This document shows positions 425 through 39,551 of a stretch of 64,000 bases of DNA, piece after piece (the first letter of the stretch is position 1; each line of letters opens with the position of its first letter). This DNA is from an uncultured Oscillospiraceae bacterium. GTDB taxonomy: Bacteria > Bacillota > Clostridia > Oscillospirales > Ruminococcaceae. Both the position numbers and the translations under genes were made by a program. The notes under the pieces were generated by a model. That model worked only from the letters and a program-made list of their open reading frames with translations, was not told the DNA's origin and did not search any database. The stretch is from the NCBI GenBank assembly GCA_964369445.1, contig CAYJFU010000001.1, forward strand, positions 3,409-67,408, in the 5' to 3' direction.

Positions 425-500
425 GATTTTCACCAAAGGTGAAAATTCAGCGGAAAACAACAAGGTAAGCCTGTAAAATCAGCTCACAGAACAAATCTTA

Positions 501-703
501 TAGTCCTTAAACTTGAAGTCCAAAAGAATTTTGCCTATCAATGCGGTGGAAACATGTGCTACACGCTGTTCCTTTAATAGTACACCGAATTGTTAATTTT
601 GACGATAGCAAAACCGAAACATACTGTATGCATTTCGATTGACGCTAGCACAGATCGGCAAATTTTTTCACGAAGATGTGTTCGTTTTCAAGTTGAATAA
701 CTA
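501..703 (+). mobile_element. MITE-like element, family A, long form (A1)
   Basis: TAGTCCTTAAACTTGAAG...gaattttgcctatcaatgcgg...cctttaatagtacaccgaattgttaattttgacgatagcaaaaccgaaaca...tcgattgacgct...GTTTTCAAGTTGAATAACTA. TA flanks lie at 499-500 and 704-705, between the convergent metG and hydA genes. Confidence 0.75.
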
Positions 704-735
704 TATAACGAATTATTTAATCAGCTTTGATTATA

Positions 736-775
736 AAACAAATAACCCCTGCCACCGGCGGGGGTTATTTGTTTT
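736..775. terminator. Family B hairpin (B2), terminator position for hydA
   Basis: aaaacaaataacccc-tgccaccggcg-ggggttatttgtttt, 17 nt beyond the hydA stop. Confidence 0.7.
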
Positions 776-791
776 AACAATTTGTTCGGGA

Positions 792-2549
792 TTAATATCT
801 CTTGGTGCGCTCAACATATTTTGTGTGCAACAGCGCATGTGCCTTGTGGCTACCCGGTGCGCCAAGATATTCGCCGTAAAGGCTCTTGATGCTCTCATTG
901 TTATGGCTGACACGGTTTTTAGATGCCTTGTCCTCGCCGTAAAGTGCAGAAGCGCGCAGACCTTTGAGATCTTTAAAGTTGCGGACAACTGCCGGTTGTA
1001 CCGGCTGACCACCACCGTTTACACAGCCACCGGGGCAAGCCATAAACTCAATGAAGTCATATTCTGCCTCGCCGGCTTTGATGCGACGTAACACTTCGTG
1101 ACAGTTGGAAAGGCCGGAGGCTACACAAACACGAACCTTTACGCCTGCAACCTCGTATGTTGCTTCCTTGATGTTTTCTGTACCACGAACATCGTTAAAG
1201 TCAAGGCTTGCCGGCTCTTCGCCTGTAAGGGTTGCAACCGCTGTACGCAGTGCGGCTTCCATAACACCACCGGTTGCGCCAAAGATGTGTCCTGCGCCGG
1301 AGGCTTCGCCCAGAGCGGGGTCAAACTGCTCGTCCGGCAGGTTGACAAAGTCGATACCTGCGCGGTAGATAACGCGTGCAAGCTCACGTGTTGTAAGTGC
1401 TACGTCAACGTCCGGCAGACCTGAGGCCGCTTGGTTTTCACGTCCTACCTCAAACTTTTTAGCTGTGCAAGGCATGATGGACACTACAAAGATGTCCTCG
1501 GGCTTTTTGCCGATCTTTTCAGCATAGTATGTCTTTGCAACGGCACCGAACATCTGTTGCGGGCTCTTACAGGTGGACAGATTTTCGATAAAGTCGGGGT
1601 GGAAGGTCTCGCAGTATTTTACCCAACCCGGACTACAGCTTGTGATAAGCGGAAGTGTACCGCCGTGCTGTACGCGGTGTAAAAACTCGGTTGCCTCCTC
1701 CATGATGGTGAGGTCAGCGGCAAAGTCGGTGTCATAAACGCCGTCAAAGCCCAGGCGACGCAGTGCGGCAACCATCTTGCCCTCTACATTGGTGCCGATA
1801 GGCATGTGGAAAGCTTCGCCCAGTGTAGCACGTACCGACGGTGCTGTCTGCACGATAACATGCTTTGTGTCATCGGCAAGCGCCGCCCATACCTTATGGG
1901 AATCGTCTTTTTCAGCAATAGCGCCGGTCGGACAGACAACGATACACTGACCGCAGGATACGCAGGTACTGTCGTTTAAGTCTGCTTCAAAAGCACAAGC
2001 AACGTGAGTTTTAAATCCGCGCTCGTTAGCACCGATACAACCGACTGCCTGCCACTTGTTACATGCAGCGATACAGCGACGGCAAAGTATACATTTAGAG
2101 TCGTCACGTGTCATGTGGACGGCACTGTCGTCGGTGATGTACTCATTTTTAACACCGGCAAAACGGTCGGTGTTGGTTATGCCATACTCCTGACACAGGC
2201 GCTGAAGTTCACAGCTACCACTACGCACACAGCCAAGACAGTCCTGATTGTGTGTGGAAAGTGTCAGTTGCAGGTTAGTTTTGCGAGCGTTGTGCACGCG
2301 CGGACTTTGAGTGTTTATCTCCATGCCGGCGGCTACAGGGTGAACACAGGCAGTGACAAGACTGCGTGCGCCCTTGACCTCGACAACGCACACGCGACAT
2401 GCGCCGATGGCGTTGATTTCTTTGAGGTAGCACAGTGTGGGAATCTCTATTCCGAGGTCGTGGCAGACCTCCAAAATAGTCTTGCCCTCCTGCACCTCGT
2501 AATCAACACCGTTGATTTTTACATTAATGTTAGCCATTTTTTCCTCCAA
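792..2549 (-). CDS. hydA: [FeFe] hydrogenase catalytic subunit, multi-cluster bifurcating/NAD(P)-linked type (HydA/HndD-like)
   Basis: 585 aa with an N-terminal 2Fe-2S motif (CYLKEINAIGACRVC), a His-ligated cluster motif (HNQDCLGCVRSGSC) and two 4Fe-4S motifs (CILCRRCIAAC, CVSCGQCIVVCP). H-cluster motifs are TSCSPGW, MPCTAKKFE and EFMACPGGCVNGGGQP. It is the last gene of the hydC...hydB-hydA operon. Confidence 0.9.
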   Translation of the reverse strand: MEEKMANINVKINGVDYEVQEGKTILEVCHDLGIEIPTLCYLKEINAIGACRVCVVEVKGARSLVTACVHPVAAGMEINTQSPRVHNARKTNLQLTLSTHNQDCLGCVRSGSCELQRLCQEYGITNTDRFAGVKNEYITDDSAVHMTRDDSKCILCRRCIAACNKWQAVGCIGANERGFKTHVACAFEADLNDSTCVSCGQCIVVCPTGAIAEKDDSHKVWAALADDTKHVIVQTAPSVRATLGEAFHMPIGTNVEGKMVAALRRLGFDGVYDTDFAADLTIMEEATEFLHRVQHGGTLPLITSCSPGWVKYCETFHPDFIENLSTCKSPQQMFGAVAKTYYAEKIGKKPEDIFVVSIMPCTAKKFEVGRENQAASGLPDVDVALTTRELARVIYRAGIDFVNLPDEQFDPALGEASGAGHIFGATGGVMEAALRTAVATLTGEEPASLDFNDVRGTENIKEATYEVAGVKVRVCVASGLSNCHEVLRRIKAGEAEYDFIEFMACPGGCVNGGGQPVQPAVVRNFKDLKGLRASALYGEDKASKNRVSHNNESIKSLYGEYLGAPGSHKAHALLHTKYVERTKRY

Positions 2550-2554
2550 AAATC

Positions 2555-4342
2555 TTACTGCCTGACAATGGCATCAAATTTGCATTTTTCTATGCATGCG
2601 CCACATTTAATACAGGTATCGGTATCAATAACATGAGCCTGCTTAACTTCGCCACTGATAGCACTAACCGGACAAACACGCTTACAAGCTGTGCAACCCT
2701 TACACTTATCAGCAATAACAAAGAAATTGACAAGATCTTTACAAACGCCGGCAGGGCAACGTTTTTCGTTGATGTGTGCCTCATACTCGTGACGGAAGTA
2801 ACGCAGTGTCGAGAGTACCGGGTTTGGCGCTGTCTGACCCAGACCGCACAGAGAGTTGTCTTTAATGAAAGCCGCAAGCTCTTCGATATCATCAATATCC
2901 GACGGTTTGCCGTTGCCGGAAGTGATTTTTTCAAGCAGTTCAAGCAGACGCTTTGTACCAACACGGCACGGGGTACATTTACCACAGCTCTCGTCGACGG
3001 TGAAGTCAAGGAAGAACCTTGCGATGTCAACCATACAGGTCTCTTCGTCCATGACGATAAGACCGCCCGAACCCATCATGGAACCGATGGCGATAAGGTT
3101 GTCGTAGTCAATGGGGGTGTCGATAAGCGATGCGGGAATACAGCCACCGGACGGGCCACCCGTCTGAGCCGCTTTAAATTTCTTGCCGTTCGGGATACCG
3201 CCGCCGATGTCCTCGACGATCTCGCGCAGGGTTGTACCCATCGGGATTTCAACAAGGCCGGTATTATTTATCTTGCCGCCCAGAGCAAACACCTTTGTGC
3301 CCTTTGACTTTTCGGTACCCATCGAGGCGAACCACTCGGCACCGTTTAGGATAATCTGCGGAATGTTTGCGTATGTCTCAACGTTGTTGAGGATGGTGGG
3401 CTTGCCAAAAAGACCCTTGACCGCCGGGAACGGAGGACGGGGACGCGGCTCACCGCGGTTGCCCTCGATGGAGGTCATAAGAGCTGTCTCCTCACCGCAG
3501 ACAAATGCGCCCGCGCCGAGTTTTATCTCTAAATCAAAGTTAAAGCCTGTGCCGAAGATATTTTCGCCCATAACGCCGGACTCTTTTGCCTGGTCAAGAG
3601 CAATCTGTAGCCTTTTAACGGCGATGGGGTACTCAGCACGCACATAGACGTAACCCTTGTCAGCGCCGATAGCGTAGCCGGCAATTGCCATAGCTTCAAT
3701 AAGTACATGGGGGTCGCCCTCGAGCACACTTCTGTCCATAAATGCGCCGGGGTCACCCTCGTCAGCGTTACAGCAGACGTATTTTTGACTGCTTTCACTC
3801 GCCTTACATAGCTTCCACTTGATACCGGTCGGGAAACCGCCGCCGCCTCTGCCGCGCAGACCGCTGTCCAGAATTTCCTTTACAACGTCGTCCGGTGTCA
3901 TCTCGGTCAAAACCTTACCGAGTGCCGCGTAGCCGTCGTAAGCTACATACTCTTCAATCTTTTCGGGGTCGATAACACCACAGTTGCGAAGTGCAACACG
4001 CTTTTGCTTTTTGTAAAAGCCGGTGTCGTTGAGGGATTTGACGATGCCGTCTTCCACCGTCTCGGTATAGAGCAGGCGGGTGACGATACGTCCTTTGAGC
4101 AGATGCTCGGACACGATTTCAGGTATATCCTTGACGTCTACCATCGAGTAGAAAGCGCCTTCGGGATAGATAACAACAATCGGACCTAACGCACAAAGAC
4201 CGAAACAACCTGTTGTTACGACCTTGACTTCCTTTTCAAGACCTGCCGTGACAAGCTCTTTTTCAAAAGTCTCAATAATTTTTACACTGCCGGAGGAGGT
4301 ACAACCGGTACCGCCGCAGACAAGCACATGGGATCGATACAT
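2555..4342 (-). CDS. hydB: Hydrogenase NADH-binding flavoprotein subunit (NuoF/51-kDa-like, HydB/HndC)
   Basis: 595 aa with a thioredoxin-like 2Fe-2S N-terminus (VLVCGGTGC...CFGLCALGP), a GRGGGGFPTG FMN/NADH core and a C-terminal 2x[4Fe-4S] domain (CKGCTACKRVCP, CIKCGACIEKC). Confidence 0.9.
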   Translation of the reverse strand: MYRSHVLVCGGTGCTSSGSVKIIETFEKELVTAGLEKEVKVVTTGCFGLCALGPIVVIYPEGAFYSMVDVKDIPEIVSEHLLKGRIVTRLLYTETVEDGIVKSLNDTGFYKKQKRVALRNCGVIDPEKIEEYVAYDGYAALGKVLTEMTPDDVVKEILDSGLRGRGGGGFPTGIKWKLCKASESSQKYVCCNADEGDPGAFMDRSVLEGDPHVLIEAMAIAGYAIGADKGYVYVRAEYPIAVKRLQIALDQAKESGVMGENIFGTGFNFDLEIKLGAGAFVCGEETALMTSIEGNRGEPRPRPPFPAVKGLFGKPTILNNVETYANIPQIILNGAEWFASMGTEKSKGTKVFALGGKINNTGLVEIPMGTTLREIVEDIGGGIPNGKKFKAAQTGGPSGGCIPASLIDTPIDYDNLIAIGSMMGSGGLIVMDEETCMVDIARFFLDFTVDESCGKCTPCRVGTKRLLELLEKITSGNGKPSDIDDIEELAAFIKDNSLCGLGQTAPNPVLSTLRYFRHEYEAHINEKRCPAGVCKDLVNFFVIADKCKGCTACKRVCPVSAISGEVKQAHVIDTDTCIKCGACIEKCKFDAIVRQ

Positions 4343-4419
4343 ATAAAAGCACCATTAGCCTTTCCGCTCACAAATCATCAGGCTCGGAACCGCCGTGAGC
4401 AGTACGATTCCGTTATGTT

Positions 4420-4785
4420 TTATTTCGCGCCTATTGTGTATTCCGTAACTGCGTTGCCGTTGACAATGTGGTCGGTAACGATTTTAGAAACCTTTTCCGG
4501 TGACATTTTAACGTAGGTAACCTTTTCCTGACCCGGTACAAAAACTTCAACAACCGGCTCGTATTGGCAGATGCCTATGCAACCTGTCTGTGCAACCGTT
4601 ACATTTGTTAGTTTGCGCTTTGCAATTTCGTCCGAGAAGGATGTCAGCACGGGACGTGCTCCTGCCGCTATGCCGCATGTAGCCATACCAACAACGACGC
4701 GAATGTTGCCCTTTGCGTCGTCACGAACGCCGATGGTTTCTCTAGTCTTGTCGCGTAACGCTTTGAGTTCTTCCAAACTTTTCAT
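4420..4785 (-). CDS. Thioredoxin-like [2Fe-2S] ferredoxin (HndB-like small hydrogenase subunit)
   Basis: 121 aa with VVVGMATCGIAAGA...CIGICQYEPVV Cys motifs typical of NuoE-fold 2Fe-2S proteins. It is embedded in the hyd operon and overlaps the upstream gene. Confidence 0.75.
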   Translation of the reverse strand: MKSLEELKALRDKTRETIGVRDDAKGNIRVVVGMATCGIAAGARPVLTSFSDEIAKRKLTNVTVAQTGCIGICQYEPVVEVFVPGQEKVTYVKMSPEKVSKIVTDHIVNGNAVTEYTIGAK

Positions 4786-5318: not shown

Positions 5319-5321
5319 AGT

Positions 5322-5819: not shown

Positions 5820-6025
5820 AGATAAATTCCTTTCTGAAGTATATAATTTTATAGCCTTAGTTAAAATTATATCATATAAAATCGTTAAAGGCTATAGCAA
5901 ATTTGTAAAAATTTTGAGTTTTTTTATTGCAAGGTGACGAACAGTAATGTATACTTAATTATATAGTTGAAATTTAGTGGCAAAACAGTCTCGGTGCAGA
6001 TAATACCGAGTTACCGCAAACTTAA

Positions 6026-6388: not shown

Positions 6389-6405
6389 CACTTTAGGAGG
6401 TTAAC

Positions 6406-6837: not shown

Positions 6838-6841
6838 CTTC

Positions 6842-8164: not shown

Positions 8165-8174
8165 TCACACTCGG

Positions 8175-8234: not shown

Positions 8235-8453
8235 ATGGACTTAACAATCAATATGCTATGGGACAACGAGGCTTGTGTATGGGTAGCCACAAGCGACGAC
8301 ATCCCCGGACTTGTGCTTGAGATGGGATCTTTTGACGGTTTGGTTGAAAGGTTGCGATATGCAATACCCGAATTATTGGAGTTAAACAGTAGCAAATGCG
8401 GTTTTTGTGACCTAAATATTGTCACTAACCGCCACGTTCGGGTAGAAATGTAA
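8235..8453 (+). CDS. DUF1902 / HicB-like antitoxin-family protein
   Basis: 72 aa. WDNEACVWVATSDDIPGLVLEMGSFDGLVERLRYAIPELLELN resembles DUF1902 (HicB N-terminal fold). Its stop overlaps the start of the hicA remnant (TAATG). Confidence 0.55.
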   Translation: MDLTINMLWDNEACVWVATSDDIPGLVLEMGSFDGLVERLRYAIPELLELNSSKCGFCDLNIVTNRHVRVEM

Positions 8454-8790
8454 TGGCAGAATATGAAAAAAAGGTGCGCAAACTGTTATTGCAGAATAAT
8501 TGCTCTTTTGTAAGGCGCGGAATTGGTACAGTCCTATTTCTCGACGACATATATAGTCATTCAACTTTAAAAACGACATGAGATTGCCGAGCAGAAATTT
8601 CGCCTATCAAGGCGGAGGATTGAGTAATACTAAAGTATTGCGATTGACGACAACGCAGATAGACGGGATTTCTGCCGGGAAGATGTGGTGTTTTTCAAGT
8701 TGAAGGACTATAACTGTTGATACTCGCATAAAATCGCGTCACACGGCAAATGCAATATTAAAGCAATGTGGCATAAACTTTAAATTTTAA
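8453..8790 (+). pseudogene. hicA: HicA-family toxin gene remnant, interrupted by a MITE (8554-8710) and with an internal frame disruption
   Basis: The 5' part reads MAEYEKKVRKLLLQNNCSFVRRG. NWYSPISRRHI follows in another frame up to the element. Directly after the element and one TA, the frame continues TVDTRIKSRHTANAILKQCGINFKF*, a HicA-like C-terminus. Confidence 0.6.
8554..8710 (+). mobile_element. MITE-like element, family A, short form (copy A2), inserted in hicA
   Basis: Termini are TAGTCATTCAACTTTAAAAAC...GTTTTTCAAGTTGAAGGACTA, and the arms form an imperfect inverted repeat of roughly 65 bp. TA lies on both sides (8552-8553 and 8711-8712). Removing the element plus one TA restores the hicA frame. 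Confidence 0.8.
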
Positions 8791-17007: not shown

Positions 17008-17096
17008 TGTTGTTCTCGTGTTTTTAATGCGATAAATTTATTTTATCATATTTTAATGTGTTGTCAACAATTTGAAGAGGTTAACCGACGAATATT

Positions 17097-17139
17097 TTTG
17101 TATTACCTCCCCCGCCGGTGGCGGGGGAGGTAATACAAA
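17097..17139. repeat. Family B hairpin (B5), downstream of the GNAT gene
   Basis: tttgtattacctcc-cccgccggtggcggg-ggaggtaatacaaa is a near-perfect hairpin. Confidence 0.7.
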
Positions 17140-17186
17140 ACGAACCGTTAGTGTGCAAAGCCATTTGGAAACATTCTCTTAAATCA

Positions 17187-17726: not shown

Positions 17727-17856
17727 CCGGTACTGTTAAGTTAAAATGAATGAAATATCATAGCGCTCTTGAAAATACAACTGTTTTCTTTTTTTGTCTT
17801 TCTTCACTACTTAGGCGGTGAGGAAAGACAGGCAACCGATATTTTTTCTTAACTCG
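17727..17856 (+). repeat. Composite repeat, family C (copy C1), containing hairpin 17795-17830
   Basis: ccggtactgttaagttaaaatgaatgaaatatcatag...gaaaatacaa...hairpin tgtctttcttcac/gtgaggaaagaca...gatattttttcttaa. It lies in the divergent GNAT/rmuC promoter region. Confidence 0.6.
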
Positions 17857-17940
17857 AACAGAGACATAGGACTTTACTCCTTGCAATTCCCTCTCTGTTC
17901 ATTTATACTATAGAAAAGATGAAAATATTACGGAGATGTT

Positions 17941-19296: not shown

Positions 19297-19304
19297 AATA
19301 CAAG

Positions 19305-19505
19305 CCAATTAACTGAAAAACGAAATAGTATTGCCGAGTGGAAGTTTCGCCTAACAGGACGGAAAGCATGGCCGGCACGTGATGATTCCTTAACAATCCA
19401 CCGAATAGTCAATATGCGGTGTCAAACCAAAATTCACTGCATGTTTTCCGTTTATCACAGGCGCCTGATAGGCGGGCTTTGTGCAGGTGAGTTTTGCCGG
19501 ATTGC
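19305..19505 (+). repeat. Family A element, long form, degenerate copy (A3)
   Basis: It shares ...aactgaaaaacgaaatagtattgccgag..gaagtttcgcctaacagg...ttccttaacaatccaccgaatagtcaat...caaaccaaaa... with A1 and A4. It fills the gap between convergent stop codons, and its ends are eroded. Confidence 0.5.
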
Positions 19506-19520
19506 ATCGGCTTGGCTGGG

Positions 19521-19907: not shown

Positions 19908-20085
19908 AATTCACCCTATAATGTCGTTAAACTGAATGATTGTGTGACAGAAAGTGTTCCGACAACTCCATGCCTACCTCAATGAGTTGCACGGAAAAAC
20001 TAGTCAAAACCATTAGCCACTTCCCTGTACAGTATATTTATTGACATTAAAAAGGGTGAATATTCATATTGCGTTTTCATTTTGG

Positions 20086-20118
20086 ATTGCTACCCCCGTC
20101 CCCGACGGTGGAAGCATT
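20086..20118. repeat. Family B hairpin, degenerate (B6), abutting MITE A4
   Basis: attgctaccc-ccgtccccgacgg-tggaagcatt. It is preceded by cgttttcattttgg, the same lead-in as hairpin B9. Confidence 0.45.
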
Positions 20119-20130
20119 TGGGAATATCTT

Positions 20131-20349
20131 AAAGTTGTTTAACTTGAAATCTTCACAAAATTGCTGAGAAGAAATTTCGCCTATCATGGCTGAGAGTCCG
20201 CGCGCTGTGCGTTGTTCTTTTAACAATACACCGGATTATTAATTTTGCTGATGGCAAAACCTAAACAACTTTGTCGTATTACGATTGACGCGAGAGAAAC
20301 CTGTGGAATCTCTGCCGGAAGATTGTGGTGGATAAGTTAAATAATTGTA
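20131..20349 (+). mobile_element. Family A element, long form (A4)
   Basis: aaagttgtttaacttgaaa...gaaatttcgcctatcatggc...cttttaacaatacaccggattattaattttgctgatggcaaaacctaaaca...cgattgacgcg...ctctgccggaagattgtggtggataagttaaataattgta. It ends 1 nt before the yfcE-like stop codon. Confidence 0.65.
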
Positions 20350-20350
20350 A

Positions 20351-20830
20351 TCATATTCGCAAAATCACATGCTCAAAGCGTGGTTTTTTGCCCTCTTCAA
20401 GATGCATTACTCCGTAAGAATATTCTTCAAACGCACGCCCAAGTGCGCCGGGATTGAAAAGATGTATGTCATCTATTATATGATCAAACGGATGGTGTGT
20501 GTGGCCAAAAAGCACAATATCCGCGTCCTGTTGTTTTGCCACCTCGACCGTCTCCGCAAGCGATAGTTTCACATTGAGCAGGTTGCCATGGGTGTAAAGT
20601 ATCCTGTAACCCATAATCGTCACAAGGCCGTCGGTTTGGTAACTCTGTTCACGGTCACAGTTACCGCGCACTGCGTAAAATTGTAGTGCCGGAAACTCTT
20701 TACAAAAACCAACTATGTCTTTAATACCGTCACCCAGAAAAAAAATGCCGTCAGCGCCCTTAGCACTCTCGCACAGATGTGCAAGGTGCTTTGTGTTGCC
20801 GTGTGTGTCTGAAACGACTAAGTATGTCAT
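20351..20830 (-). CDS. YfcE/MJ0936-family metallophosphoesterase
   Basis: 159 aa with VVSDTHGN, GDG, GNCD and GHTH calcineurin-like motifs. Confidence 0.8.
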   Translation of the reverse strand: MTYLVVSDTHGNTKHLAHLCESAKGADGIFFLGDGIKDIVGFCKEFPALQFYAVRGNCDREQSYQTDGLVTIMGYRILYTHGNLLNVKLSLAETVEVAKQQDADIVLFGHTHHPFDHIIDDIHLFNPGALGRAFEEYSYGVMHLEEGKKPRFEHVILRI

Positions 20831-28307: not shown

Positions 28308-28407
28308 CGAAAATACATCTACTTATCTTTCCGTTCATTCCTCCCCGTCGAAGGCAGGGAGGAATGAGAGAGTAACAACTATTTTTCCATGTTAAATTAA
28401 CAAAGCC
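28308..28407 (+). repeat. Composite repeat, family C (copy C2, left part truncated), containing hairpin 28335-28367
   Basis: gaaaatacatct...ccgttcattcctcccc-gtcgaagg-cagggaggaatgag...atttttccatgttaaattaacaaagcc. Confidence 0.6.
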
Positions 28408-28471: not shown

Positions 28472-29509
28472 TTAGTGCAGCGGTCTTGCAAAAAAACCAT
28501 CAATCGCCTTGACAAGGCCATACACGGCTTTTTCGTCTATCTGGTAATGGGTTAAAAACCTTAAAACTCCACCGTTTGCCGGCAAAGTTTTGTATCCACT
28601 TTGCAGTAGGTGCTCGCACAGCTTTTGCGCATCAAACTCCCGTGTGATTTTGACAAACAGCATGTTGATGTGTACATCGTCCATGACGCTTATATAAGGA
28701 AGCTTTGCAAGCTCGCTTGCGAGCAACTTTGCTGTTTTGTGGTCGTCGCCCAAACGCGCTGTCATCTCGTTTAGTGCGACTTTGCCTGCCGCCGCCACAA
28801 CACCTACTTGCCGCAATGCGCCGCCCATGCGTTTGCGGTTTTTTCTTGCCTTTGCGATAAACTGCTCCTCACCGCACAACATCGAACCCATCGGAGCCGC
28901 AAGACCTTTGGAAAGACAAAACATCACGCTGTCACAGTACTGTGCAACCTCTGCAGCCTCACAACCGAGCGCCGTTGCCGCGTTGAACAAACGCGCGCCA
29001 TCAAGGTGTACCGGCAGTGCGGTTTCCTTTGCGGCGGTGTAACAGTCGCGCATAACGTCAAGCTGCACGGCTATGCCGTTTGAGAGCGCGTTCTCAACGC
29101 AAACAAGCCCTGTTTCGGCGTTCAAAAAGCCGTCCGGTCGGCGCAGTCTGCGGATATCGTCACCGTGTAAAACACCGTCTGCATTGTCGGCGGTGCGCAT
29201 CGTCACACCTGCTATGAGCGCCGCCGCACCCAGTTCGTGCTCCACTATGTGTATGCGACCGCTACACACCACCTCGTCCGCTCTTTTTGTGTGGGTGAGC
29301 AGTGCCAGTTGATTGCCGAACGTGCCGCTGGGCACAAATACCGCCGCCTGTTTGCCTACAAGACGCGCGGCAAGCCGTTCCAGTTCATTTACCGTCGGGT
29401 CATCGCCGAACACATCATCACCGACCGCCGCCGTCGCCATCGCCTGACGCATTACCGCCGTCGGCTCGGTCACCGTATCACTTCGGAAGTCGTATTTGTA
29501 CTCATTCAT
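28472..29509 (-). CDS. ltaE: Low-specificity L-threonine aldolase
   Basis: 345 aa from MNEYKYDFRSDTVTEPT, with a PLP fold-type I core. The listed 377-aa ORF is an upstream read-through into a repeat element. Confidence 0.85.
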   Translation of the reverse strand: MNEYKYDFRSDTVTEPTAVMRQAMATAAVGDDVFGDDPTVNELERLAARLVGKQAAVFVPSGTFGNQLALLTHTKRADEVVCSGRIHIVEHELGAAALIAGVTMRTADNADGVLHGDDIRRLRRPDGFLNAETGLVCVENALSNGIAVQLDVMRDCYTAAKETALPVHLDGARLFNAATALGCEAAEVAQYCDSVMFCLSKGLAAPMGSMLCGEEQFIAKARKNRKRMGGALRQVGVVAAAGKVALNEMTARLGDDHKTAKLLASELAKLPYISVMDDVHINMLFVKITREFDAQKLCEHLLQSGYKTLPANGGVLRFLTHYQIDEKAVYGLVKAIDGFFARPLH

Positions 29510-29632
29510 CTTAGTATCCACCACATCTTTCCGGCAGAAATTCCGCCTATCTTCGCCCGTCTCAATCGCAATACATACAGCATGTTTCGATTTTGCCATC
29601 GGCAAAAATCAGGTTCTTGCTCTAAAGTAGTA
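29499..29632 (-). mobile_element. Family A element, partial copy (A5), abutting and overlapping the ltaE start
   Basis: The minus strand reads ...gatttttgccgatggcaaaatcgaaaca...tgcgattgagacgggcgaagataggcggaatttctgccggaaagatgtggtggatactaagATGAATGAGTA. The last 13 nt align with the family 3' TIR ...gTTGAATGACTA. Confidence 0.55.
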
Positions 29633-29657
29633 TCGCACAATTTTCGTTTCATTTTGG

Positions 29658-29690
29658 ATTACCTCCCCCGACTATGGCGGAGGAGGTAAT
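29658..29690. repeat. Family B hairpin (B9) with a conserved tail module (to ~29735)
   Basis: attacctcc-cccgactatggcgg-aggaggtaat. The tail ...acatcaagtttttgtgcAAACTGACAATGATTTT shares a 17-nt identity with 62571-62587. Confidence 0.65.
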
Positions 29691-29746
29691 TAAAAACACA
29701 TCAAGTTTTTGTGCAAACTGACAATGATTTTCCGTGCAACAAAATC

Positions 29747-33761: not shown

Positions 33762-33832
33762 TACTATCTAATAATAGCTTTAATAATTATTTTTGTCAAG
33801 GTCGTTCCTAATAGGCGATAAACTCAATGATG

Positions 33833-33879
33833 TGTTTTTAATAGCTCCCCCGCCGAAGGCGTGGGAGCTATTAAAAACA
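33833..33879. terminator. Family B hairpin (B11) downstream of the MIP gene
   Basis: tgtttttaatagctcc-cccgccgaaggcgtg-ggagctattaaaaaca. Confidence 0.6.
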
Positions 33880-33930
33880 ATTAGCATCGAATTAACACGG
33901 TTGCAAAAATCTGCAAATTCTGTTACAATA

Positions 33931-34089
33931 TAGTTGTTCGACTTAAAAAAACGACACAAGATTTCCATGCGGAAATTTCGCCTGTCAACGCGTAAAATTG
34001 AGTGATGCTTTGTGCATCGCGATTGACGCTGGCGAAGATAGACGTTATCTCTACCCGGAAGGTGTTGTGGGTTTCATGTTGAATGACTA
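33931..34089 (+). mobile_element. MITE-like element, family A, short form (A6)
   Basis: TAGTTGTTCGACTTAAAAAAACGAC...gaaatttcgcctgtcaacgcg...gatgctttgtgcatc...gcgattgacgct...GGGTTTCATGTTGAATGACTA. TA flanks lie at 33929-33930 and 34090-34091, and the element is 32 nt upstream of hisH. Confidence 0.75.
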
Positions 34090-34121
34090 TATAACACAGG
34101 TATTATAATAAAGAGGAAATT

Positions 34122-34724: not shown

Positions 34725-34797
34725 AAGCTGCAAATGGCTTGTCTATTTGGGGTTGTCGCACTAAAGACAATTTTCACACGGATTAAAGGAGATACAC

Positions 34798-35595
34798 ATG
34801 CTTACTAAAAGACTTATTGCATGCTTTGACATTGTAAACGGTATGGTGACAAAGGCGCAAAAGTTTCAGGATAATATAGACGTTGCACCTGCGCGCGAGC
34901 TTGCCGGTGCCATGTATGACGGCGGTGTCGACGAGATAATTTTTTACGACATAAAGGCGAGCGCCGAAAAGCGCCGCATCGACCTTGTGACGGTTAAACA
35001 GGTTGCCGAGCGCGTTTTTGTACCTTTCACCGTCGGCGGCGGCATCAAGACACTTGATGACATGTACGACACGTTAAAAGCCGGTGCGGAAAAGATAAGC
35101 GTCGACAGCATGGCGGTGCGCAACCCCGAAATAATCACGCAGGGCGCAAAGGCGTTCGGAAGTCAGTGCATAGTGCTGTCCACGCAGGTAAAGCGCGGTG
35201 GTGTCAGCGAGCGCATACCGAGCGGTTATGAGGTTTTTATCGACGGTGCGGCGGTTGCAACGGGACTTGATGCGCTCGAGTGGGTTTTGCGCGGTCAGGA
35301 GCTTGGTGCCGGTGAGGTCTGCCTTAACAGCATAGACAATGACGGCATGGTAAGCGGCTACGATCTTGACATAACAAAGAGGGCGGCAGAGATGCTACGC
35401 ATACCGCTTATCGCCTCGGGTGGTGCCGGCAAGCCGGAGCATCTGAGCGACCTGTTTTTACAGACACAGGCGCAAGCTTGCATCATAAGCAGTATGTTAT
35501 ACTCACCGCGACTGCCAAAAAACTACACGATAGAGGAGCTTAAGTCGCACCTTGCGGATAAAGGTGTTAACGTGCGCCCCTATAGTGTGCGATGA
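34798..35595 (+). CDS. hisF: Imidazole glycerol phosphate synthase, cyclase subunit
   Basis: 265 aa. RLIACFDI...DEIIFYDI...FTVGGGI...ASGGAG is the (beta/alpha)8 HisF signature. Confidence 0.9.
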   Translation: MLTKRLIACFDIVNGMVTKAQKFQDNIDVAPARELAGAMYDGGVDEIIFYDIKASAEKRRIDLVTVKQVAERVFVPFTVGGGIKTLDDMYDTLKAGAEKISVDSMAVRNPEIITQGAKAFGSQCIVLSTQVKRGGVSERIPSGYEVFIDGAAVATGLDALEWVLRGQELGAGEVCLNSIDNDGMVSGYDLDITKRAAEMLRIPLIASGGAGKPEHLSDLFLQTQAQACIISSMLYSPRLPKNYTIEELKSHLADKGVNVRPYSVR

Positions 35596-36899
35596 TGAGC
35601 GTTAATATTGTCGGCGCAGGTCTTGCCGGTTGCGAGGCCGCGCTTTATCTTGCAAAACAAGGAATAAAGGTAAATCTTTACGAGCAAAAAACAATACATC
35701 GCTCCGCCGCGCACAGCACCGACCTGCCGGCGGAACTTGTCTGCTCCAACTCTTTCGGTGCTTTTCGTGAAAACAGCGCAAGCGGACTGCTCAAAAAGGA
35801 GATAACGCTTTTGGGTGGCAGTCTGTTTGACATCGCCCACAGTGTCAGCGTTCCGGCAGGCGGTGCGCTTGCGGTACAGCGCGACGATTTTTCCGCCGCT
35901 GTCAATTCGGCACTGCAACAACAGCCGAACATACTGCTTATCCGTGAGCGCGTCGACAACATTGAGGACATTGCAAACAGCGGTTTGACGATGGTCGCCA
36001 CCGGCCCCATGACCGACGGCGCTTTCGCGGACTCGCTGTTTGAACTTATTGGAGGCAACCTGTCCTACTACGATGCGGCGGCACCTATCGTGACGGCGGA
36101 CAGCCTTGATAAACAGCACTGTTTCAGTGCATCGCGGTACGGGCGCGGCACCGACGACTACATCAACTGCCCTATGACGCGCGAGCAATATTACGATTTT
36201 GTGCAGGCTTTGCTGGATGCCGAGCGCGCGCTTGTGCACGACTTTGACAAGGTCTACGAGGGCTGTATGCCGGTGGAGGTGCTTGCCTCACGCGGTGTGG
36301 ACAGCCTGCGTTTCGGCCCACTTAAACCGGTGGGACTAATCGACCCCTCGACCGACAAGCGTCCATTTGCCAACCTACAACTGCGTAAGGAGGACACGGG
36401 CGGACGGCTTTTGAACCTTGTGGGTTTTCAGACAAACCTCAAGTTTGGCGAACAGCGCCGAGTGTTCGGCATGATACCGGCGCTTAGCGGTGCGGAATAC
36501 GTGCGGTATGGTGTCATGCACCGCAACAGTTTTATAAATTCACCGCAGGTGCTAAACGCTGATCTGTCACTAAAAAGCCATCCCGACATTATACTTTGCG
36601 GCGGCATAACCGGCTTTGAGGGTTACAGCGAGTCGGTGGCGTGCGGTTTGCTTGCGGCGCGCTTTGTGCACGCACGGCTAAACGGCAAGCCGATAACACA
36701 CCCGCCGTTTGAAACGATGTGCGGTGGACTGTTGCGCCACATATTGACCGAGAGCAAAGACTTTCAGCCACAGGGTGCGGCTATGGGTTTACTGCCACCG
36801 CTACCCGAGCGCATCAAAGACAAACAGTTGCGCTACTCAGCGGTTGCAAATCGTGCACTGGAGGCACTTCGTCTGTATATCAATGCCGGTGCCGAATAA
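35592..36899 (+). CDS. trmFO: Methylenetetrahydrofolate-tRNA-(uracil54-C5)-methyltransferase TrmFO
   Basis: 435 aa with a VNIVGAGLAGCEAA FAD motif and GFQTNLKFGEQ. Its start overlaps the hisF stop (ATGA). Confidence 0.9.
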   Translation: MMSVNIVGAGLAGCEAALYLAKQGIKVNLYEQKTIHRSAAHSTDLPAELVCSNSFGAFRENSASGLLKKEITLLGGSLFDIAHSVSVPAGGALAVQRDDFSAAVNSALQQQPNILLIRERVDNIEDIANSGLTMVATGPMTDGAFADSLFELIGGNLSYYDAAAPIVTADSLDKQHCFSASRYGRGTDDYINCPMTREQYYDFVQALLDAERALVHDFDKVYEGCMPVEVLASRGVDSLRFGPLKPVGLIDPSTDKRPFANLQLRKEDTGGRLLNLVGFQTNLKFGEQRRVFGMIPALSGAEYVRYGVMHRNSFINSPQVLNADLSLKSHPDIILCGGITGFEGYSESVACGLLAARFVHARLNGKPITHPPFETMCGGLLRHILTESKDFQPQGAAMGLLPPLPERIKDKQLRYSAVANRALEALRLYINAGAE

Positions 36900-36923
36900 A
36901 AGTCAACATTTTAAAGGAAATAC

Positions 36924-36970
36924 TCCCGATTACCTACCCCCCGCCGATGGCGGATGGTAGGTAATCGGGA
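36924..36970. terminator. Family B hairpin (B12) downstream of trmFO
   Basis: tcccgattacctacc-ccccgccgatggcgg-atggtaggtaatcggga. Confidence 0.6.
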
Positions 36971-37039
36971 AAAATAATAGTACGCAATAGGAAGTTAATT
37001 CAGTAGCAACCTGCATTTCTTATCCGCACCCGGAATAAA

Positions 37040-37191
37040 GGCTTTGTTAATTTATAGTCAATTAACTTGAAATCCAATTATCACCCGTTCATTCCTCCCC
37101 ACCTTCGGCGGGGAGGAATGAACGGAAAGAAAAACGCTTGTGGTTTCGGGTTTACTGTGATATTTCAAACATTTTAACCTAACAGTGCCGG
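37040..37191 (-). repeat. Composite repeat, family C (copy C3, inverted), containing hairpin 37085-37125
   Basis: The reverse complement reads ccggcactgttaggttaaaatgtttgaaatatcacagtaaacccgaaaccacaagcg...ccgttcattcctccccgccgaaggtggggaggaatgaacgg...aattaacaaagcc. It also carries a family-A-like TIR (tagtcaattaacttgaaa) at 37053-37070. Confidence 0.65.
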
Positions 37192-37213
37192 AATAAATAC
37201 AAGGAGAAAGTCT

Positions 37214-37834
37214 ATGACCTGTTACATTGTAGCGGCTATGCCGACATGCGTTGAAATAGCGCCGCAAGAGGACGACTTTGTCATTGCTGTCGATGGCGGT
37301 TTTGCACAGCTTAAAGGGTTGCGCGCCGATGCTGTACTCGGTGACTTTGACTCGCTCGGCTACACACCGCACGGCGACAACGTGCTGACCTACGCCAAAG
37401 AAAAGGACGACACCGACACCATGCTGGCGGTAAAACTCGGCATGGAAAAAGGGTATCGTCACTTTGTCATTGTTGGGGGTATCGGTGGCAGATTTTGCCA
37501 CACCTTCGCAAACATCCAAACGCTCGCCTATATAGTTGAGCGTGGCGGCAGTGCCACACTTGTCGGTGACGACACACGCATGACGGTAATAAAAAACGAC
37601 ACCCTGCACCTGCCGCAAAAGGCAGAGGGCATCGTGTCGGTGTTCGCCTACAGCGGTGCGGCGCAAGGGGTGAGCATCAACGGTCTCAAATACGAGGTGC
37701 AAAACGCACAGCTGGTGCCCGACCTACCGCTCGGTGTCAGCAACGAGTTTTGCGGAAAACCTGCGGTTATCGAGGTTAAACACGGGATGTTGCTTATAGT
37801 AGTCAGTTTTGCTCCGCAAGATAATCAAGGCTAA
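37214..37834 (+). CDS. thiN: Thiamine diphosphokinase
   Basis: 206 aa with the GDFDSLG motif, KDDTD and a C-terminal TPK B1-binding domain. Confidence 0.8.
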   Translation: MTCYIVAAMPTCVEIAPQEDDFVIAVDGGFAQLKGLRADAVLGDFDSLGYTPHGDNVLTYAKEKDDTDTMLAVKLGMEKGYRHFVIVGGIGGRFCHTFANIQTLAYIVERGGSATLVGDDTRMTVIKNDTLHLPQKAEGIVSVFAYSGAAQGVSINGLKYEVQNAQLVPDLPLGVSNEFCGKPAVIEVKHGMLLIVVSFAPQDNQG

Positions 37835-38000
37835 CGTTGTGATACCGTGCAATGAGCACAGCGATGTTCAAAGGGATCTCACGCTCACCGCTCTCATAGC
37901 GGACATATGTCGTTTTGTGCATGTGCAACAGTGCCGACATCTCCGCCTGTGACAGGTCTGCATCCTCTCTTAAATCGCGTATACGCGGATAGCAACCCAA
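37803..38000 (-). CDS. XRE-family HTH regulator (TTG start), paralog of 12403-12609
   Basis: 65 aa with IRDLREDADLSQAEMSALLHMHKTTYVRYESGEREIP. RBS gaggtg. The 3' end overlaps thiN by 32 nt (convergent). Confidence 0.7.
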   Translation of the reverse strand: MGCYPRIRDLREDADLSQAEMSALLHMHKTTYVRYESGEREIPLNIAVLIARYHNVSLDYLAEQN

Positions 38001-38026
38001 AATTCACCTCTTTTTTATTGACATTG

Positions 38027-38042
38027 TACACCGTGTGGTGTA
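38027..38042. promoter_or_regulatory. Inverted repeat upstream of the XRE gene (candidate operator)
   Basis: TACACC-gtgt-GGTGTA overlaps a TACAAT -10-like hexamer on the minus strand. Confidence 0.4.
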
Positions 38043-38246
38043 TTAAAAATAGGTGACTTATGATAAAATGTGAAAGTGACTAATGCCTGTATTACAAAGA
38101 TGAACATTGTGTATTTGATGAAATCAAAATAAATTACATAGGTATGTGTGACAGCTATATCTTTCCCAATATCCCCGACGAAGACATGGTATATTACAAG
38201 ACATTGACCTTTGAGCGGTGGGCAAAGGACTGTCCTTAAACCATTA

Positions 38247-39350
38247 TCACCACCCAACAAGCAACAACTCCGCCAGTGCCTGTGCGGCATATTTCCCTGC
38301 CCTTAGCGCTTCGTCCAGCGTATTGGCGTGACCGCCAACCTCCAGTAACAGTGCGCCGGTGGACAGCTGTTGGTTATAATTGCGATAGTCAAACAGTATA
38401 GGGCGCGTGAAAGTCGGGTACATTGACTCCATCGCCGTCTGATATGCCGATGCAAATGCCAAATTTTGCAGATAGTTCGGCATACCCATCGTACCGTCGT
38501 CAGCACCTGAAATGAGCATGACCTGCGCTGTCTTTTCGCCGTTTATAAGGGTGACCGGTTTTAGTCTTGTGCCGTCACTCTGTTGCAGTGCATCGCGGTG
38601 CACATCCAGCACCACCTTTATTGATGGGTACTGCGCAAGGTACTGTTGCACAGTCATCGCCGAGGCATCGTAACTGCCATTATAGGAAAACTCGTCATGC
38701 AGTGTAGTGTCGTGTATCGTGTTGATTCCGGCGCTGTTGAGCACTTCCGTCATAACAGCACCGACCGCGACAATGTTTTGTGTTTTATCGGCGCTACGAC
38801 TACCCACGGCAGGGTCATAGTAGCCTAAATCCTCTGGGTCATAGCTCTCGGTGCCGTGGGTGTGGTATATCAGCACCTGCGGCTCATCAGAATACGGTTC
38901 AACAAAAAACGACGGCTGCTGTGCTGCCGCCTCGGCAACGCCACTGTTTGGCACCGAAGTCAAGTTCCATATGTATCCGGCAGAAAGACCTATCGTTCGG
39001 TTATCCATCGATGCTGTCATCGTTAGCTGTTCTATCGGCCCCATTCCGACCGGAGGTGTAACCTGAAAGTCCGTTGAAAGTACCGCCTGTGTGTGCGCCG
39101 GTGTCTGTTCGGTGGCTGCTGGCGACTGTGATGTGTCAATGGATGGTATAGCTTGCCAAAAGCCTCTGTTATCCGCCTGCACCGACGGTGTGCTTTCCAA
39201 AACAGATTGTTCTATATATGATGTGCCCTCCACCGGTGTAAAAAGCAGTGATGTGAGGTTTGCAATGCCGGCCAATATAAATAGCAGCGCACAAGGCAGC
39301 ACCGCACCGTGCAACAACCTTTTGCGTCGCAAACTTTTTTTAAGACACAT
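38247..39350 (-). CDS. spoIIP: Stage II sporulation protein P
   Basis: 367 aa with an N-terminal membrane anchor and IYHTHGTESY...DVHRDAL, the SpoIIP amidase-like core. Confidence 0.8.
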   Translation of the reverse strand: MCLKKSLRRKRLLHGAVLPCALLFILAGIANLTSLLFTPVEGTSYIEQSVLESTPSVQADNRGFWQAIPSIDTSQSPAATEQTPAHTQAVLSTDFQVTPPVGMGPIEQLTMTASMDNRTIGLSAGYIWNLTSVPNSGVAEAAAQQPSFFVEPYSDEPQVLIYHTHGTESYDPEDLGYYDPAVGSRSADKTQNIVAVGAVMTEVLNSAGINTIHDTTLHDEFSYNGSYDASAMTVQQYLAQYPSIKVVLDVHRDALQQSDGTRLKPVTLINGEKTAQVMLISGADDGTMGMPNYLQNLAFASAYQTAMESMYPTFTRPILFDYRNYNQQLSTGALLLEVGGHANTLDEALRAGKYAAQALAELLLVGW

Positions 39351-39382
39351 GCTTTAAACCTCCTTCTATTAGTTTTGTCACT

Positions 39383-39551
39383 GTTATTGCTCCGCCAATT
39401 AAACAGTGGATAAGATTGGCGAGTGATTTTGCCTGTAGTGCAAGGAAAAGGTTCTTTTTAATGCTTTGTGCATTAAAAATGGTTCTTTGACGCCGCAATA
39501 CGGGTAAAATCGCCGTCAAGATTGTCCGCAGTTTAGTTGGTGGAGCAATAA
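39383..39551 (+). repeat. Palindromic element related to family A (A7) with different outer TIRs
   Basis: The arms are TTATTGCTCCGCCAATTAAACAG...gattggcgagtgattttgcctgtagtgc...central hairpin aatgctttgtgcatt...ctttgacgccgcaatacgggtaaaatcgccgtcaag...CAGTTTAGTTGGTGGAGCAATAA. Confidence 0.6.

What the first reader, a model, noticed from the sequence alone, without database searches (positions are those of the whole stretch)
499..39551. Dense MITE-like family (family A): TIR-bounded palindromic elements of ~157-219 bp with TA flanks, at least 7 copies in 40 kb and no transposase in the window
Seven related copies lie at 501-703, 8554-8710, ~19305-19505, 20131-20349, 29499-29632 (inverted, partial), 33931-34089 and the diverged 39383-39551. 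They share termini of the form TAGT(C/T)NTT(C/A)AACTT(T/G)AA...TTCAAGTTGAANNACTA. They also share long imperfectly complementary arms containing GAAATTTCGCCTATCA and its partner GATAGRCGGGATTTCTGCC, a conserved CGATTGACG box and a small central hairpin (for example gatgctttgtgcatc). There are two size classes. The short form is 157-159 bp. The long form is ~203-219 bp and carries an extra central module (ctttaaYaRtacaccgRattRttaattttg...gcaaaaccNaaaca). The three best-preserved copies are each flanked by TA on both sides. For the 8554-8710 copy, removing the element plus one TA restores an interrupted reading frame. A 2-bp TA target-site duplication is the hallmark of IS630/Tc1-mariner-mobilised MITEs. 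At roughly one copy per 6-8 kb, the element would be present in hundreds of copies genome-wide if this window is representative. I do not recognise the sequence as a described repeat or Rfam family.
Basis: partly seen in the sequence, partly recalled or inferred. Interest (0 to 1): 0.7.

Follow-up and report, generated by a model that had tools for sequence, protein, structure and literature searches.

The report
IS630-type MITE family in Oscillospiraceae
The repeats are real: they are small, non-coding "hitch-hiker" transposons (MITEs) that insert at TA dinucleotides and carry the same end sequences as an IS630-family insertion sequence, which makes them an ordinary but previously undescribed member of a well-known class.

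Summary
Four copies (A1, A2, A4, A6) are bounded by 20-22 bp inverted termini (TAGTC...GACTA, degenerate in A4) and TA on both sides. A3 and A5 lack one terminus, and A7 is diverged.

The same family occurs in at least four related uncultured Oscillospiraceae MAGs, again almost always TA-flanked. Mobility is shown in two ways:
- Copy 8554-8710 splits a hicA toxin gene. Deleting the element plus one TA (159 bp) restores a sequence 70-81% identical, without a gap at the junction, to intact 64-65 aa HicA proteins.
- One MAG has a copy at a site that is empty in the syntenic locus of another MAG.

An 898-bp, TA-flanked IS630-family insertion sequence found in metagenomes has a right end matching the element termini at 20-21 of 22 positions. 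Its 282-aa transposase (after a -1 frameshift) has an HTH domain and a DD35E motif.

No transposase lies in the window or in any related genomic DNA sampled, so the partner is inferred, not shown, for these genomes.

This is a new member of a known kind, comparable to pneumococcal RUP/IS630-Spn1. Two things remain unexplained: a strand-asymmetric hairpin with compensatory changes, and 95% conservation of one copy across species.

The parts
501..703 (+). Copy A1: long form (203 bp) with both termini, and TA at 499-500 and 704-705
   Evidence: nhmmer E=7.6e-44. Sequence read. 82% identity to the cross-species long-form consensus, flanks TA/TA.
8554..8710 (+). Copy A2: short form (157 bp) with intact termini, and TA at 8552-8553 and 8711-8712. 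Youngest copy; it is inserted in hicA.
   Evidence: nhmmer E=9e-39. 95.5% identity to the consensus from other species. 84-95% to individual MAG copies. RNA fold -60.4 kcal/mol, z = -7.5.
8453..8790 (+). hicA toxin pseudogene, interrupted by A2 and carrying a 14-nt deletion. Exons are 8453-8553 and 8713-8790. Its partner hicB (DUF1902) at 8235-8453 is intact.
   Evidence: The reconstructed 59-aa product is 70-81% identical over 100% of its length to intact 64-65 aa PF07927 HicA proteins. The junction RHI|TVD is ungapped. DUF1902 E=1.7e-21.
19302..19506 (+). Copy A3: long form with a degenerate 5' terminus (AAGCCAATTAAC) and no 3' terminus. It starts 6 nt after the rmuC stop codon.
   Evidence: nhmmer E=2.9e-41, model positions 4-194 only. 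76% identity to consensus, flanks not TA. Sequence read.
20132..20347 (+). Copy A4: long form with degenerate termini (AAGTTG...AATTG), and TA at 20130-20131 and 20348-20349. It lies 3 nt from the stop codon of the gene at 20351-20830(-).
   Evidence: nhmmer E=2.2e-49. 82% identity to consensus, TA/TA. Sequence read.
29499..29640 (-). Copy A5: 5'-truncated long form. The ATG (29509-29507) and a GGTGGA ribosome-binding-like motif of the beta-eliminating-lyase gene (28472-29509, minus strand) lie inside its terminal repeat.
   Evidence: nhmmer E=1.8e-37, model positions 66-212. The Pfam Beta_elim_lyase match starts at residue 7 of the ORF that begins at 29509. Sequence read.
33931..34089 (+). 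Copy A6: short form (159 bp) with both termini, and TA at 33929-33930 and 34090-34091. It sits 32 nt upstream of a glutamine amidotransferase gene.
   Evidence: nhmmer E=1.2e-39. 80% identity to consensus, TA/TA. A promoter-like match has its -35 (TTGAAT) in the right terminus, but this is a consensus match only.
39383..39551 (+). Copy A7: diverged copy with decayed termini
   Evidence: nhmmer E=2.7e-18. 79% identity over the alignable part.
37055..37076 (+). Solo terminus TAGTCAATTAACTTGAAATCCA, preceded by TA and embedded in a copy of a different repeat (family B)
   Evidence: 22/22 identical to the right terminus of the subfamily found in MAG CAYJGF. Sequence read.
62282..62303 (+). Solo terminus relic TAGACGTTCAACTTAAAAAACG, 3 nt after the stop of the gene at 60881-62278 and followed by a terminator-like hairpin
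   Evidence: 19/22 match to the left terminus. Sequence read. My estimate of the chance expectation for <=3 mismatches in 128 kb is about 3e-4.

Best explanation
Family A is a family of non-autonomous DNA transposons (MITEs). Each element is 136-225 bp with no ORF and has 20-22 bp terminal inverted repeats (TAGTCATTCAACTTGAAAA...). These repeats are the recognition ends of an IS630-family (DD35E) transposase supplied in trans.

The transposase would bind both ends, excise the element and paste it into a TA dinucleotide, which is duplicated on either side. Copies land in intergenic DNA and at gene ends, and then decay.

Shown here:
- the family itself and its TA flanks;
- one insertion with a reconstructable TA duplication;
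- one filled site matched by an empty site;
- a TA-flanked IS630 element with matching ends.

Inferred:
- that this transposase, or a close relative, mobilises the family;
- that such a transposase is or was present in these genomes;
- the side effects in this window, namely a dead hicA toxin gene and a start codon plus RBS-like motif for the lyase gene lying within copy A5.
For: - Seven copies in the window, and about 30 more in four Oscillospiraceae MAGs at unrelated sites.
- TA flanks 15/18 left ends and 16/18 right ends, and conservation stops beyond the TA.
- Removing 8554-8712 (159 bp) restores hicA: 70-81% identity to intact HicA, 100% coverage, no gap at the junction.
- An orthologous intergenic site is filled in CAYJMO (L120 5290-5490) and empty in CAYJGF (L111). 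The left breakpoint falls exactly after AAAATA.
- Independent insertions of opposite orientation lie downstream of rmuC in the window and in CAYJMO. CAYJGF and CAYJKY have none there.
- An exact 19-mer of the terminus hits the end of an IS630 transposase gene (L113).
- Two 99%-identical 898-bp IS copies at different sites (L116, L117) define ends in register with the MITE ends. All six IS right ends are followed by TA.
- The fused transposase scores 172.8 bits against NCBIfam transpos_IS630 (cutoff 100) and matches HTH_Tnp_IS630 plus DDE_3.
- Copies show no orientation bias relative to neighbouring genes, about 10 versus 9 (crude gene calls).
- Private mutations in stems are symmetric, 15 G.U versus 15 A.C, as expected for decaying dead copies.
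Against: - No IS630 transposase was found in the window, or in about 0.3 Mb of DNA sampled from MITE-bearing MAGs.
- The IS copies found are in AT-rich contigs (32-35% G+C) of other, unidentified hosts.
- Similarity between the IS and the MITE is confined to the terminal 22 nt or so. The interiors are unrelated.
- Both MITE ends resemble the IS right end. The IS left end matches only 16/23.
- Cut-and-paste of duplex DNA does not explain two observations. First, the hairpin is more stable on one strand. Second, variants shared between copies are G.U in 13 helix columns but A.C in only 1.
- No population data exist for the window's own species. The nearest RmuC relative is 69% identical.
Confidence: 0.88

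Rival explanations
1. The element is primarily a structured RNA, or a strand-specific single-stranded DNA hairpin, that is under selection. It could be an RNA-stability or RNase III target, a terminator/attenuator module, or a regulator of the transposase. Under this reading, its conservation and spread reflect that function rather than mere parasitism. Transposition by IS630 would be only the vehicle.
For: - 58 predicted pairs, 96.4% of cells paired, and 12 pairs with changes on both sides. None of 500 shuffles reaches the observed covariation.
- The + strand folds better than the - strand: RNA -60.4 versus -49.7 kcal/mol, DNA -34.4 versus -28.7.
- Variants shared by two or more copies are G.U in 13 columns and A.C in 1.
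- The long form adds three more hairpins whose stems are kept while their loops vary.
- The interior is invariant in 18 copies from several species, and A2 is 95.5% identical to a consensus from genomes whose RmuC is only 60-69% identical.
Against: - Orientation relative to flanking transcription units is about even, 10 versus 9, which a cis-acting RNA would not show.
- Most covarying cells come from one split between two subfamilies, so they represent few independent events.
- Co-variation of the two termini is equally expected from co-evolution with a transposase.
- The structure was predicted on the + strand, which favours counting G.U pairs. One conserved C.A also exists.
- No Rfam family matches.
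- Window copies decay freely, at 76-82% identity and with lost termini.
Confidence: 0.1
2. The elements are mobilised by something other than an IS630 transposase, such as a single-strand hairpin-dependent enzyme (IS200/IS605-type or integron-like). Under this reading, the match to the IS630 end is coincidental.
For: - The hairpin is strand-asymmetric.
- The terminus contains RYYYAAC/GTTRRRY-like words (ATTCAAC ... GTTGAAT), as seen by eye.
- No transposase is found nearby.
Against: - The IS and MITE ends coincide base for base, including the flanking TA, at 20-21 of 22 positions.
- The hicA site shows a 2-bp TA duplication. IS200/IS605 elements make no duplication (from my own knowledge of ISfinder family definitions).
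- The window has no integrase and no cassette organisation. Its genes are housekeeping genes in mixed orientation.
Confidence: 0.02

Closest known systems
RUP (repeat unit of pneumococcus) and IS630-Spn1, Streptococcus pneumoniae
   Same: Both are non-coding MITEs in a Firmicute. Both have termini resembling those of an IS630-family IS, insert at TA, and are thought to be moved in trans. RUP is mainly intergenic but also inserts within IS elements; family A copies lie between genes and at gene ends, with one inside hicA. The RUP properties are taken from Delihas 2008 (PMC2229807).
   Different: RUP is 107 bp with about 9-bp TIRs and 108 copies in a cultured pathogen. Family A is 136-225 bp with 20-22 bp TIRs, has modular hairpin inserts, and is found only in uncultured Oscillospiraceae. 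No sequence comparison with RUP was made, because its sequence was not to hand.
Correia / NEMIS elements of Neisseria
   Same: Both have TA at their termini, TIRs of about 24 bp, and two main size classes that differ by an internal block of about 50-60 bp. Both fold as long stem-loops and can contribute promoter elements. Size classes and TA are from PMC2229807; the promoter and RNase III roles are from my own knowledge. The terminus TATAGTCAATTAAC... loosely recalls Correia's TATAGCGGATTAAC... (from memory, not tested).
   Different: Correia elements occur in a proteobacterial host, and the 2008 review (PMC2229807) names no IS partner for them. Here an IS630 element with matching ends was found. 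Family A is not a member of this family.
ISY100-like small IS630-family insertion sequences and their MITEs in cyanobacteria
   Same: The partner IS here is 898 bp, encodes a 282-aa HTH + DD35E transposase and is TA-flanked. Its transposase is 38% identical to unannotated sequences on Synechocystis PCC 6803 plasmids, and 39-47% identical to annotated IS630 transposases elsewhere. That ISY100 is about 950 bp with a 282-aa transposase and a TA target is from my own knowledge.
   Different: The IS here needs a -1 frameshift at an A8 run to join its two ORFs. Identity to these relatives is low, and the host clade is different.
ERIC/IRU and YPAL repeats of enterobacteria
   Same: These are whole-length imperfect palindromes of 127-168 bp, located between genes and co-transcribed with them, and they come in variants with internal inserts (PMC2229807).
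   Different: ERIC and YPAL have very short TIRs (7 bp) and no known transposase, and they show no sequence relation to family A.

Membership tests
Bacterial MITE (non-autonomous TIR transposon) | Small size (<300 bp) and no coding capacity | tested here: met
   Elements are 136-225 bp. Only chance ORFs of about 40 aa cross A2.
Bacterial MITE (non-autonomous TIR transposon) | Terminal inverted repeats | tested here: met
   Termini of 20-22 bp pair in all full copies, and both ends co-vary between subfamilies.
Bacterial MITE (non-autonomous TIR transposon) | Target-site duplication | tested here: met
   At the hicA site the net insertion is 159 bp, that is 157 + TA. Intact homologues read R-H-I-T-V-D across the junction.
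Bacterial MITE (non-autonomous TIR transposon) | Multiple dispersed copies and presence/absence differences at homologous sites | tested here: met
   About 37 copies across five genomes. A site filled in CAYJMO is empty in CAYJGF. The comparison is between species, not between strains.
Bacterial MITE (non-autonomous TIR transposon) | An autonomous element with the same ends in the same genome | tested here: inconclusive
   An IS with matching ends exists in metagenomes. None was found in the window or in about 0.3 Mb of MITE-bearing MAG DNA. Whole genomes could not be scanned.
IS630/Tc1-mariner-mobilised element | Insertion at TA with 2-bp duplication | tested here: met
   The IS copies are also TA-flanked at six distinct sites.
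IS630/Tc1-mariner-mobilised element | Termini match those of an element encoding an IS630-family DDE transposase | tested here: met
   Identity to the IS right end is 21/22 (L113) and 20/22 (L116). The transposase scores 172.8 bits against NF033545 (cutoff 100) and matches HTH_Tnp_IS630 plus DDE_3 with D..D(35)E.
IS630/Tc1-mariner-mobilised element | Transposase binds and moves the element | not testable with these tools
   This needs a binding or transposition assay.
Any Rfam RNA family | Covariance-model match at or near the gathering score | tested here: not met
   There are no hits at gathering score in the whole window. At E <= 1, two elements gave nothing or only noise of 11-18 bits against cutoffs of 60-88.
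Integron attC site | Cassette array with an integrase, uniform orientation and one site per cassette | tested here: not met
   Copies are separated by 0.8-11 kb of housekeeping genes in mixed orientation, with no integrase.
RUP / Correia (specific families) | Sequence similarity to the family consensus | not tested
Length, TIR length and host all differ.

The most novel reading that the evidence does not exclude
The propagating ('master') lineages of this MITE may be under selection for a strand-specific folded nucleic acid, either an RNA or a single-stranded DNA intermediate. This is suggested by three observations:
- compensatory changes in the stems;
- tolerance of G.U but not A.C in variants shared between copies;
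- near-invariance of the interior across species whose housekeeping proteins are only 60-69% identical.

If true, the element would be more than a pair of transposase-binding ends. It could be a mobile structured-RNA module, or an IS630-type element whose transposition or regulation depends on a hairpin.
Probability: 0.12. Interest if true: 0.55.

Novelty: new member of a known kind. Interest (0 to 1): 0.3.

Why it matters
- It adds a documented MITE/IS630 pair for Oscillospiraceae, a gut-associated clade known almost only from MAGs. I found no description of this family (literature searches; Rfam).
- At least three MAG contigs end inside a copy, consistent with the repeat fragmenting short-read assemblies. 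A model of the family would therefore help with assembly, annotation and strain typing.
- The window also gives clean examples of what such elements do: they can kill a toxin gene, and one here contains a gene's start codon and RBS-like motif.
- One copy is 95% identical to copies in distantly related species, which suggests recent horizontal spread within one community.
- None of this changes current understanding of MITEs.

Tried and rejected
- Phage or plasmid origin: megablast of the first 20 kb against phages gave one irrelevant 74% hit, and blastn of A2 against plasmids gave nothing.
- The single genome-contig scan with GAAATTTCGCCTRTCANNGC: about 75 of the 110 stretches were a coding motif of a conserved gene (probably Lon protease, by eye), not the repeat.
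- Exact-protein look-ups for window proteins (hicB, the 440-aa hydrogenase-like protein, RmuC) found no contig. No sister strains were therefore available.
- Pfam, NCBIfam and PDB searches with the reconstructed HicA gave nothing usable. The large protein database was needed to identify it.
- A search with the 40-aa transposase C-terminus returned only one truncated relic.
- The search for related loci with the transposase in viral contigs found nothing, and terminus patterns of subfamily 2 in viral contigs gave only chance hits.
- blastn of the IS against all MITE loci found no interior similarity.
- Integron attC and IS200/IS605-type readings were considered and rejected (see the rival explanations).
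- The promoter scan at A6 gave a hybrid -35/-10 match, but no more matches than in shuffled sequence.

Full report
**Observation.**
The seven claimed copies align as one family. A profile built from them recovers exactly those seven loci in the window: 496-709, 8551-8715, 19299-19506, 20127-20351, 29494-29640 (minus strand), 33928-34094 and 39378-39556. The profile recovers no further copy in the rest of the window. Diagnostic motifs are far above shuffled expectation, at 7 versus 1.2 and 10 versus 0.14.

Read base by base, four copies have both termini and TA on both sides: A1 (501-703), A2 (8554-8710), A4 (20132-20347) and A6 (33931-34089). A3 has lost its 3' terminus, A5 its 5' arm, and A7 is diverged. 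A fuzzy search for the terminus also found two solo relics. One is at 37055-37076, 22/22 identical to a subfamily terminus. The other is at 62282-62303, with 19/22 matches.

The long form equals the short form plus a block of about 62 nt. That block folds as three extra hairpins under a common long stem.

**Context.**
The window is ordinary chromosomal DNA of a spore-forming Clostridia-type organism. Forty ORFs scanned include hydrogenase subunits, SpoIIP, RmuC, DnaD/DnaC-like proteins, alanine racemase and sugar kinases. None is a transposase. It is not phage DNA. Its RmuC exists once in the large protein collection, on a 92,922-bp NCBI contig. The next relatives, at 60-69% identity, are uncultured Oscillospiraceae MAGs.

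**The family elsewhere.**
One scan of species-representative genomes with an internal 20-mer returned true copies only from four Oscillospiraceae MAGs of project ERP123703: CAYJGF, CAYJMO, CAYJJX and CAYJDA. The other stretches were a coding motif. In total, 29 copies in loci plus 7 in the window were collected. Further forms of about 136 nt and about 180 nt exist.

Eighteen full short copies align at 84% mean column identity. TA precedes 15/18 left ends and follows 16/18 right ends, and similarity stops beyond the TA. Three MAG contigs end inside a copy (L005, L107, L120), so MAG copy numbers are underestimates.

Density is uneven. Unbiased 11-21 kb samples around rmuC hold 0, 0 and 3 copies, against 7 in this window.

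**Proof of insertion and of the TA duplication.**
A2 lies in a hicBA module. hicB (8235-8453) is an intact DUF1902 protein. Downstream, removing 8554-8712 (element plus one TA, 159 bp) joins ...NWYSPISRRHI to TVDTRIKSRHTANAILKQCGINFKF. The reconstructed 59-aa protein is 70-81% identical over its full length to hundreds of intact 64-65 aa HicA toxins (PF07927). These read ...SP(I/L)S.RH(I/V)TVDT(K/R)IKSRHTANA... with no gap at the junction.

DNA of two intact modules confirms the codons CA(C/T) (ATT/GTG) AC(C/T) GTT GA(C/T) across the site. The ancestral target was therefore the TA in CAT-ATA-ACT. The flanking TA is duplicated target, not part of the element.

The only gap against the intact proteins is a 5-residue stretch (KGDHDI) further upstream. 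It corresponds to a 14-nt frameshifting deletion.

**Filled versus empty site.**
CAYJMO and CAYJGF share gene order around rmuC. Between the flagellin gene and the next gene, CAYJMO carries a long-form copy (L120 5290-5490). CAYJGF does not. The alignment is about 90% identical up to AAAATA, where the element starts in CAYJMO, and it resumes about 20 nt beyond the element.

Downstream of rmuC, the window has A3 in one orientation and CAYJMO has a copy in the other. CAYJGF and CAYJKY have none there.

**The partner.**
An exact 19-mer of the terminus found, in viral contigs, the end of a contig (L113). There it is the last 19 nt of an element whose adjacent ORF ends ...PELNPIEKLWANMKKFLRNFLHNFSSLDDAINSFFQVE*, with the stop codon inside the terminus. 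A metagenome scan with the IS-specific junction gave four more loci.

L116 (8790-9687) and L117 (485-1382) are 99.3% identical 898-bp copies at unrelated sites. Both are flanked by TA, which fixes the element ends. All six right ends seen are followed by TA and then by unrelated sequence.

The element has two ORFs joined by a -1 shift at an A8 run. The fused 282-aa protein matches NCBIfam transpos_IS630 at 172.8 bits (cutoff 100), and Pfam HTH_Tnp_IS630 plus DDE_3, with D...D(35)E. Its nearest annotated relatives are IS630-family transposases at 39-47% identity.

The ends line up as follows:
- MITE left end: TA|TAGTCATTCAACTTGAAAAACG
- MITE right end, reverse complement: TA|TAGTCCTTCAACTTGAAAACCA
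- IS right end: TA|TAGTCATTCAACTTGAAAAAAG (L113) and TA|TAGTCATTCAACCTGAAAAAAG (L116)
- IS left end: TA|TACTAATTCCACTTTAAATCAG

Similarity ends after about 22 nt.

**Limits of the partner evidence.**
The IS copies sit in AT-rich contigs of unidentified hosts (32-35% G+C; 44% for L113). tblastn finds no such transposase in the window or in any MITE-bearing locus fetched.

**Structure.**
The short form folds as one long imperfect hairpin: RNA -60.4 kcal/mol with z = -7.5, DNA -34.4 kcal/mol. On 18 copies, 58 pairs are 96.4% paired and 12 pairs change on both sides. No shuffle or slid register comes close to these values.

Most double changes separate two subfamilies, so they represent few independent events. 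Those in the termini (ATTCAAC/GTTGAA versus AATTAAT/GTTAATT) are equally what co-evolution with a transposase predicts.

An oddity remains. The complementary strand folds about 10 kcal/mol worse as RNA and about 6 kcal/mol worse as DNA. Variants shared by two or more copies are G.U in 13 helix columns but A.C in only 1. Private variants, by contrast, are 15 versus 15. One conserved C.A also exists. Private mutations thus look neutral, as expected for dead copies, while the propagating lineages look constrained on one strand.

Orientation relative to neighbouring genes is about even (crude ORF calls). This argues against a cis-acting RNA role for the dispersed copies.

**Age and spread.**
A2 is 95.5% identical to a consensus built from other species. 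The other window copies are 76-82% identical to their consensus. One recent arrival among old decaying copies, together with high cross-species identity, suggests recent horizontal movement within one community. This is inference.

**Local effects (inference).**
- hicA is inactivated.
- The start codon and a GGTGGA motif of the beta-eliminating-lyase gene lie in the terminal repeat of A5.
- A3 and A4 lie 6 and 3 nt from stop codons.
- At A6, a -35-like TTGAAT in the terminus pairs with a flank -10, but this is no better than chance.

**Comparison with known systems.**
The closest analogue is pneumococcal RUP with IS630-Spn1: a Firmicute MITE, termini like those of an IS630 element, and a TA target. 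Correia elements share TA termini, long TIRs and two size classes that differ by an internal block (Delihas 2008, PMC2229807).

No Rfam family matches. Literature searches found no description of this family.

**Verdict.**
This is a new member of a known kind.

Noticed in passing
window 17737-17880(+), 28308-28407(+), 37040-37180(-), 39549-39690(+): This is a second, unrelated repeat family of about 140 nt. Its core is a small hairpin (GAAAACACAAGTGTTTTTC) followed by a G+C-rich hairpin (CGTTCATTCCTCCCCGCCGAAGGCGGGGAGGAATGAACG). Its ends, TGTTAAGTTAAA... and ...TAAATTAACAAAGCC, look like short inverted repeats, so it may be another MITE. The 37-kb copy contains the solo family-A terminus.
   Followed up: partly
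window 17096-17141, 20080-20125, 29652-29697, 33834-33879, 39714-39759, 48819-48864, 62508-62553: Seven long terminator-like hairpins share one architecture: an A/T-rich outer stem with a CCCCCGCCG-loop-GGCGGGGG core. Their outer stems differ but remain complementary. 29643-29731 and 62499-62587 also share about 40 nt downstream (76% identity). Three of the hairpins lie within 100 nt of family-A copies.
   Followed up: no
window 8235-8790: The hicB(DUF1902)-hicA toxin-antitoxin module has an intact antitoxin. Its toxin is inactivated twice, by a 14-nt deletion and by the MITE. Intact versions of the same two-gene module sit in prophage-like regions of other Clostridia MAGs (L126, L127).
   Followed up: yes
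L054 5512-5540: A 27-bp mini-derivative (TAGTCA joined directly to TTTTTCAAGTTGAATGACTT) abuts a full copy through a shared TA. It is either an extreme internal deletion or an excision remnant next to a second insertion.
   Followed up: no
window 28472-29509 (-) with 29499-29640: The beta-eliminating-lyase (threonine-aldolase-like) gene appears to start at an ATG created inside the terminal repeat of truncated copy A5. There the consensus AAGTTGAATGACTA reads AAGATGAATGAGTA. A GGTGGA motif lies 7 nt upstream.
   Followed up: partly
L116 9140-9150 (and L117, L118): The IS630-type element needs a -1 shift at an A8 run (CGAAAAAAAAGAC) to fuse its HTH and DDE ORFs. The same arrangement is seen in L116 and L117, and tblastn shows the same two-frame split in L118. 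This suggests programmed frameshifting or transcriptional slippage rather than decay.
   Followed up: partly
L005, L107, L120 (contig ends): Three MAG contigs terminate inside family-A copies. Short-read assemblies therefore break at this repeat, and copy numbers in MAGs are underestimates.
   Followed up: no
L111 11330-11900: In MAG CAYJGF, the 590-bp spacer after rmuC is packed with G+C-rich palindromic blocks (for example GGGGACGG...CCGTCCCC and CACATC...GATGTGGGGGG) that are unrelated to family A.
   Followed up: no
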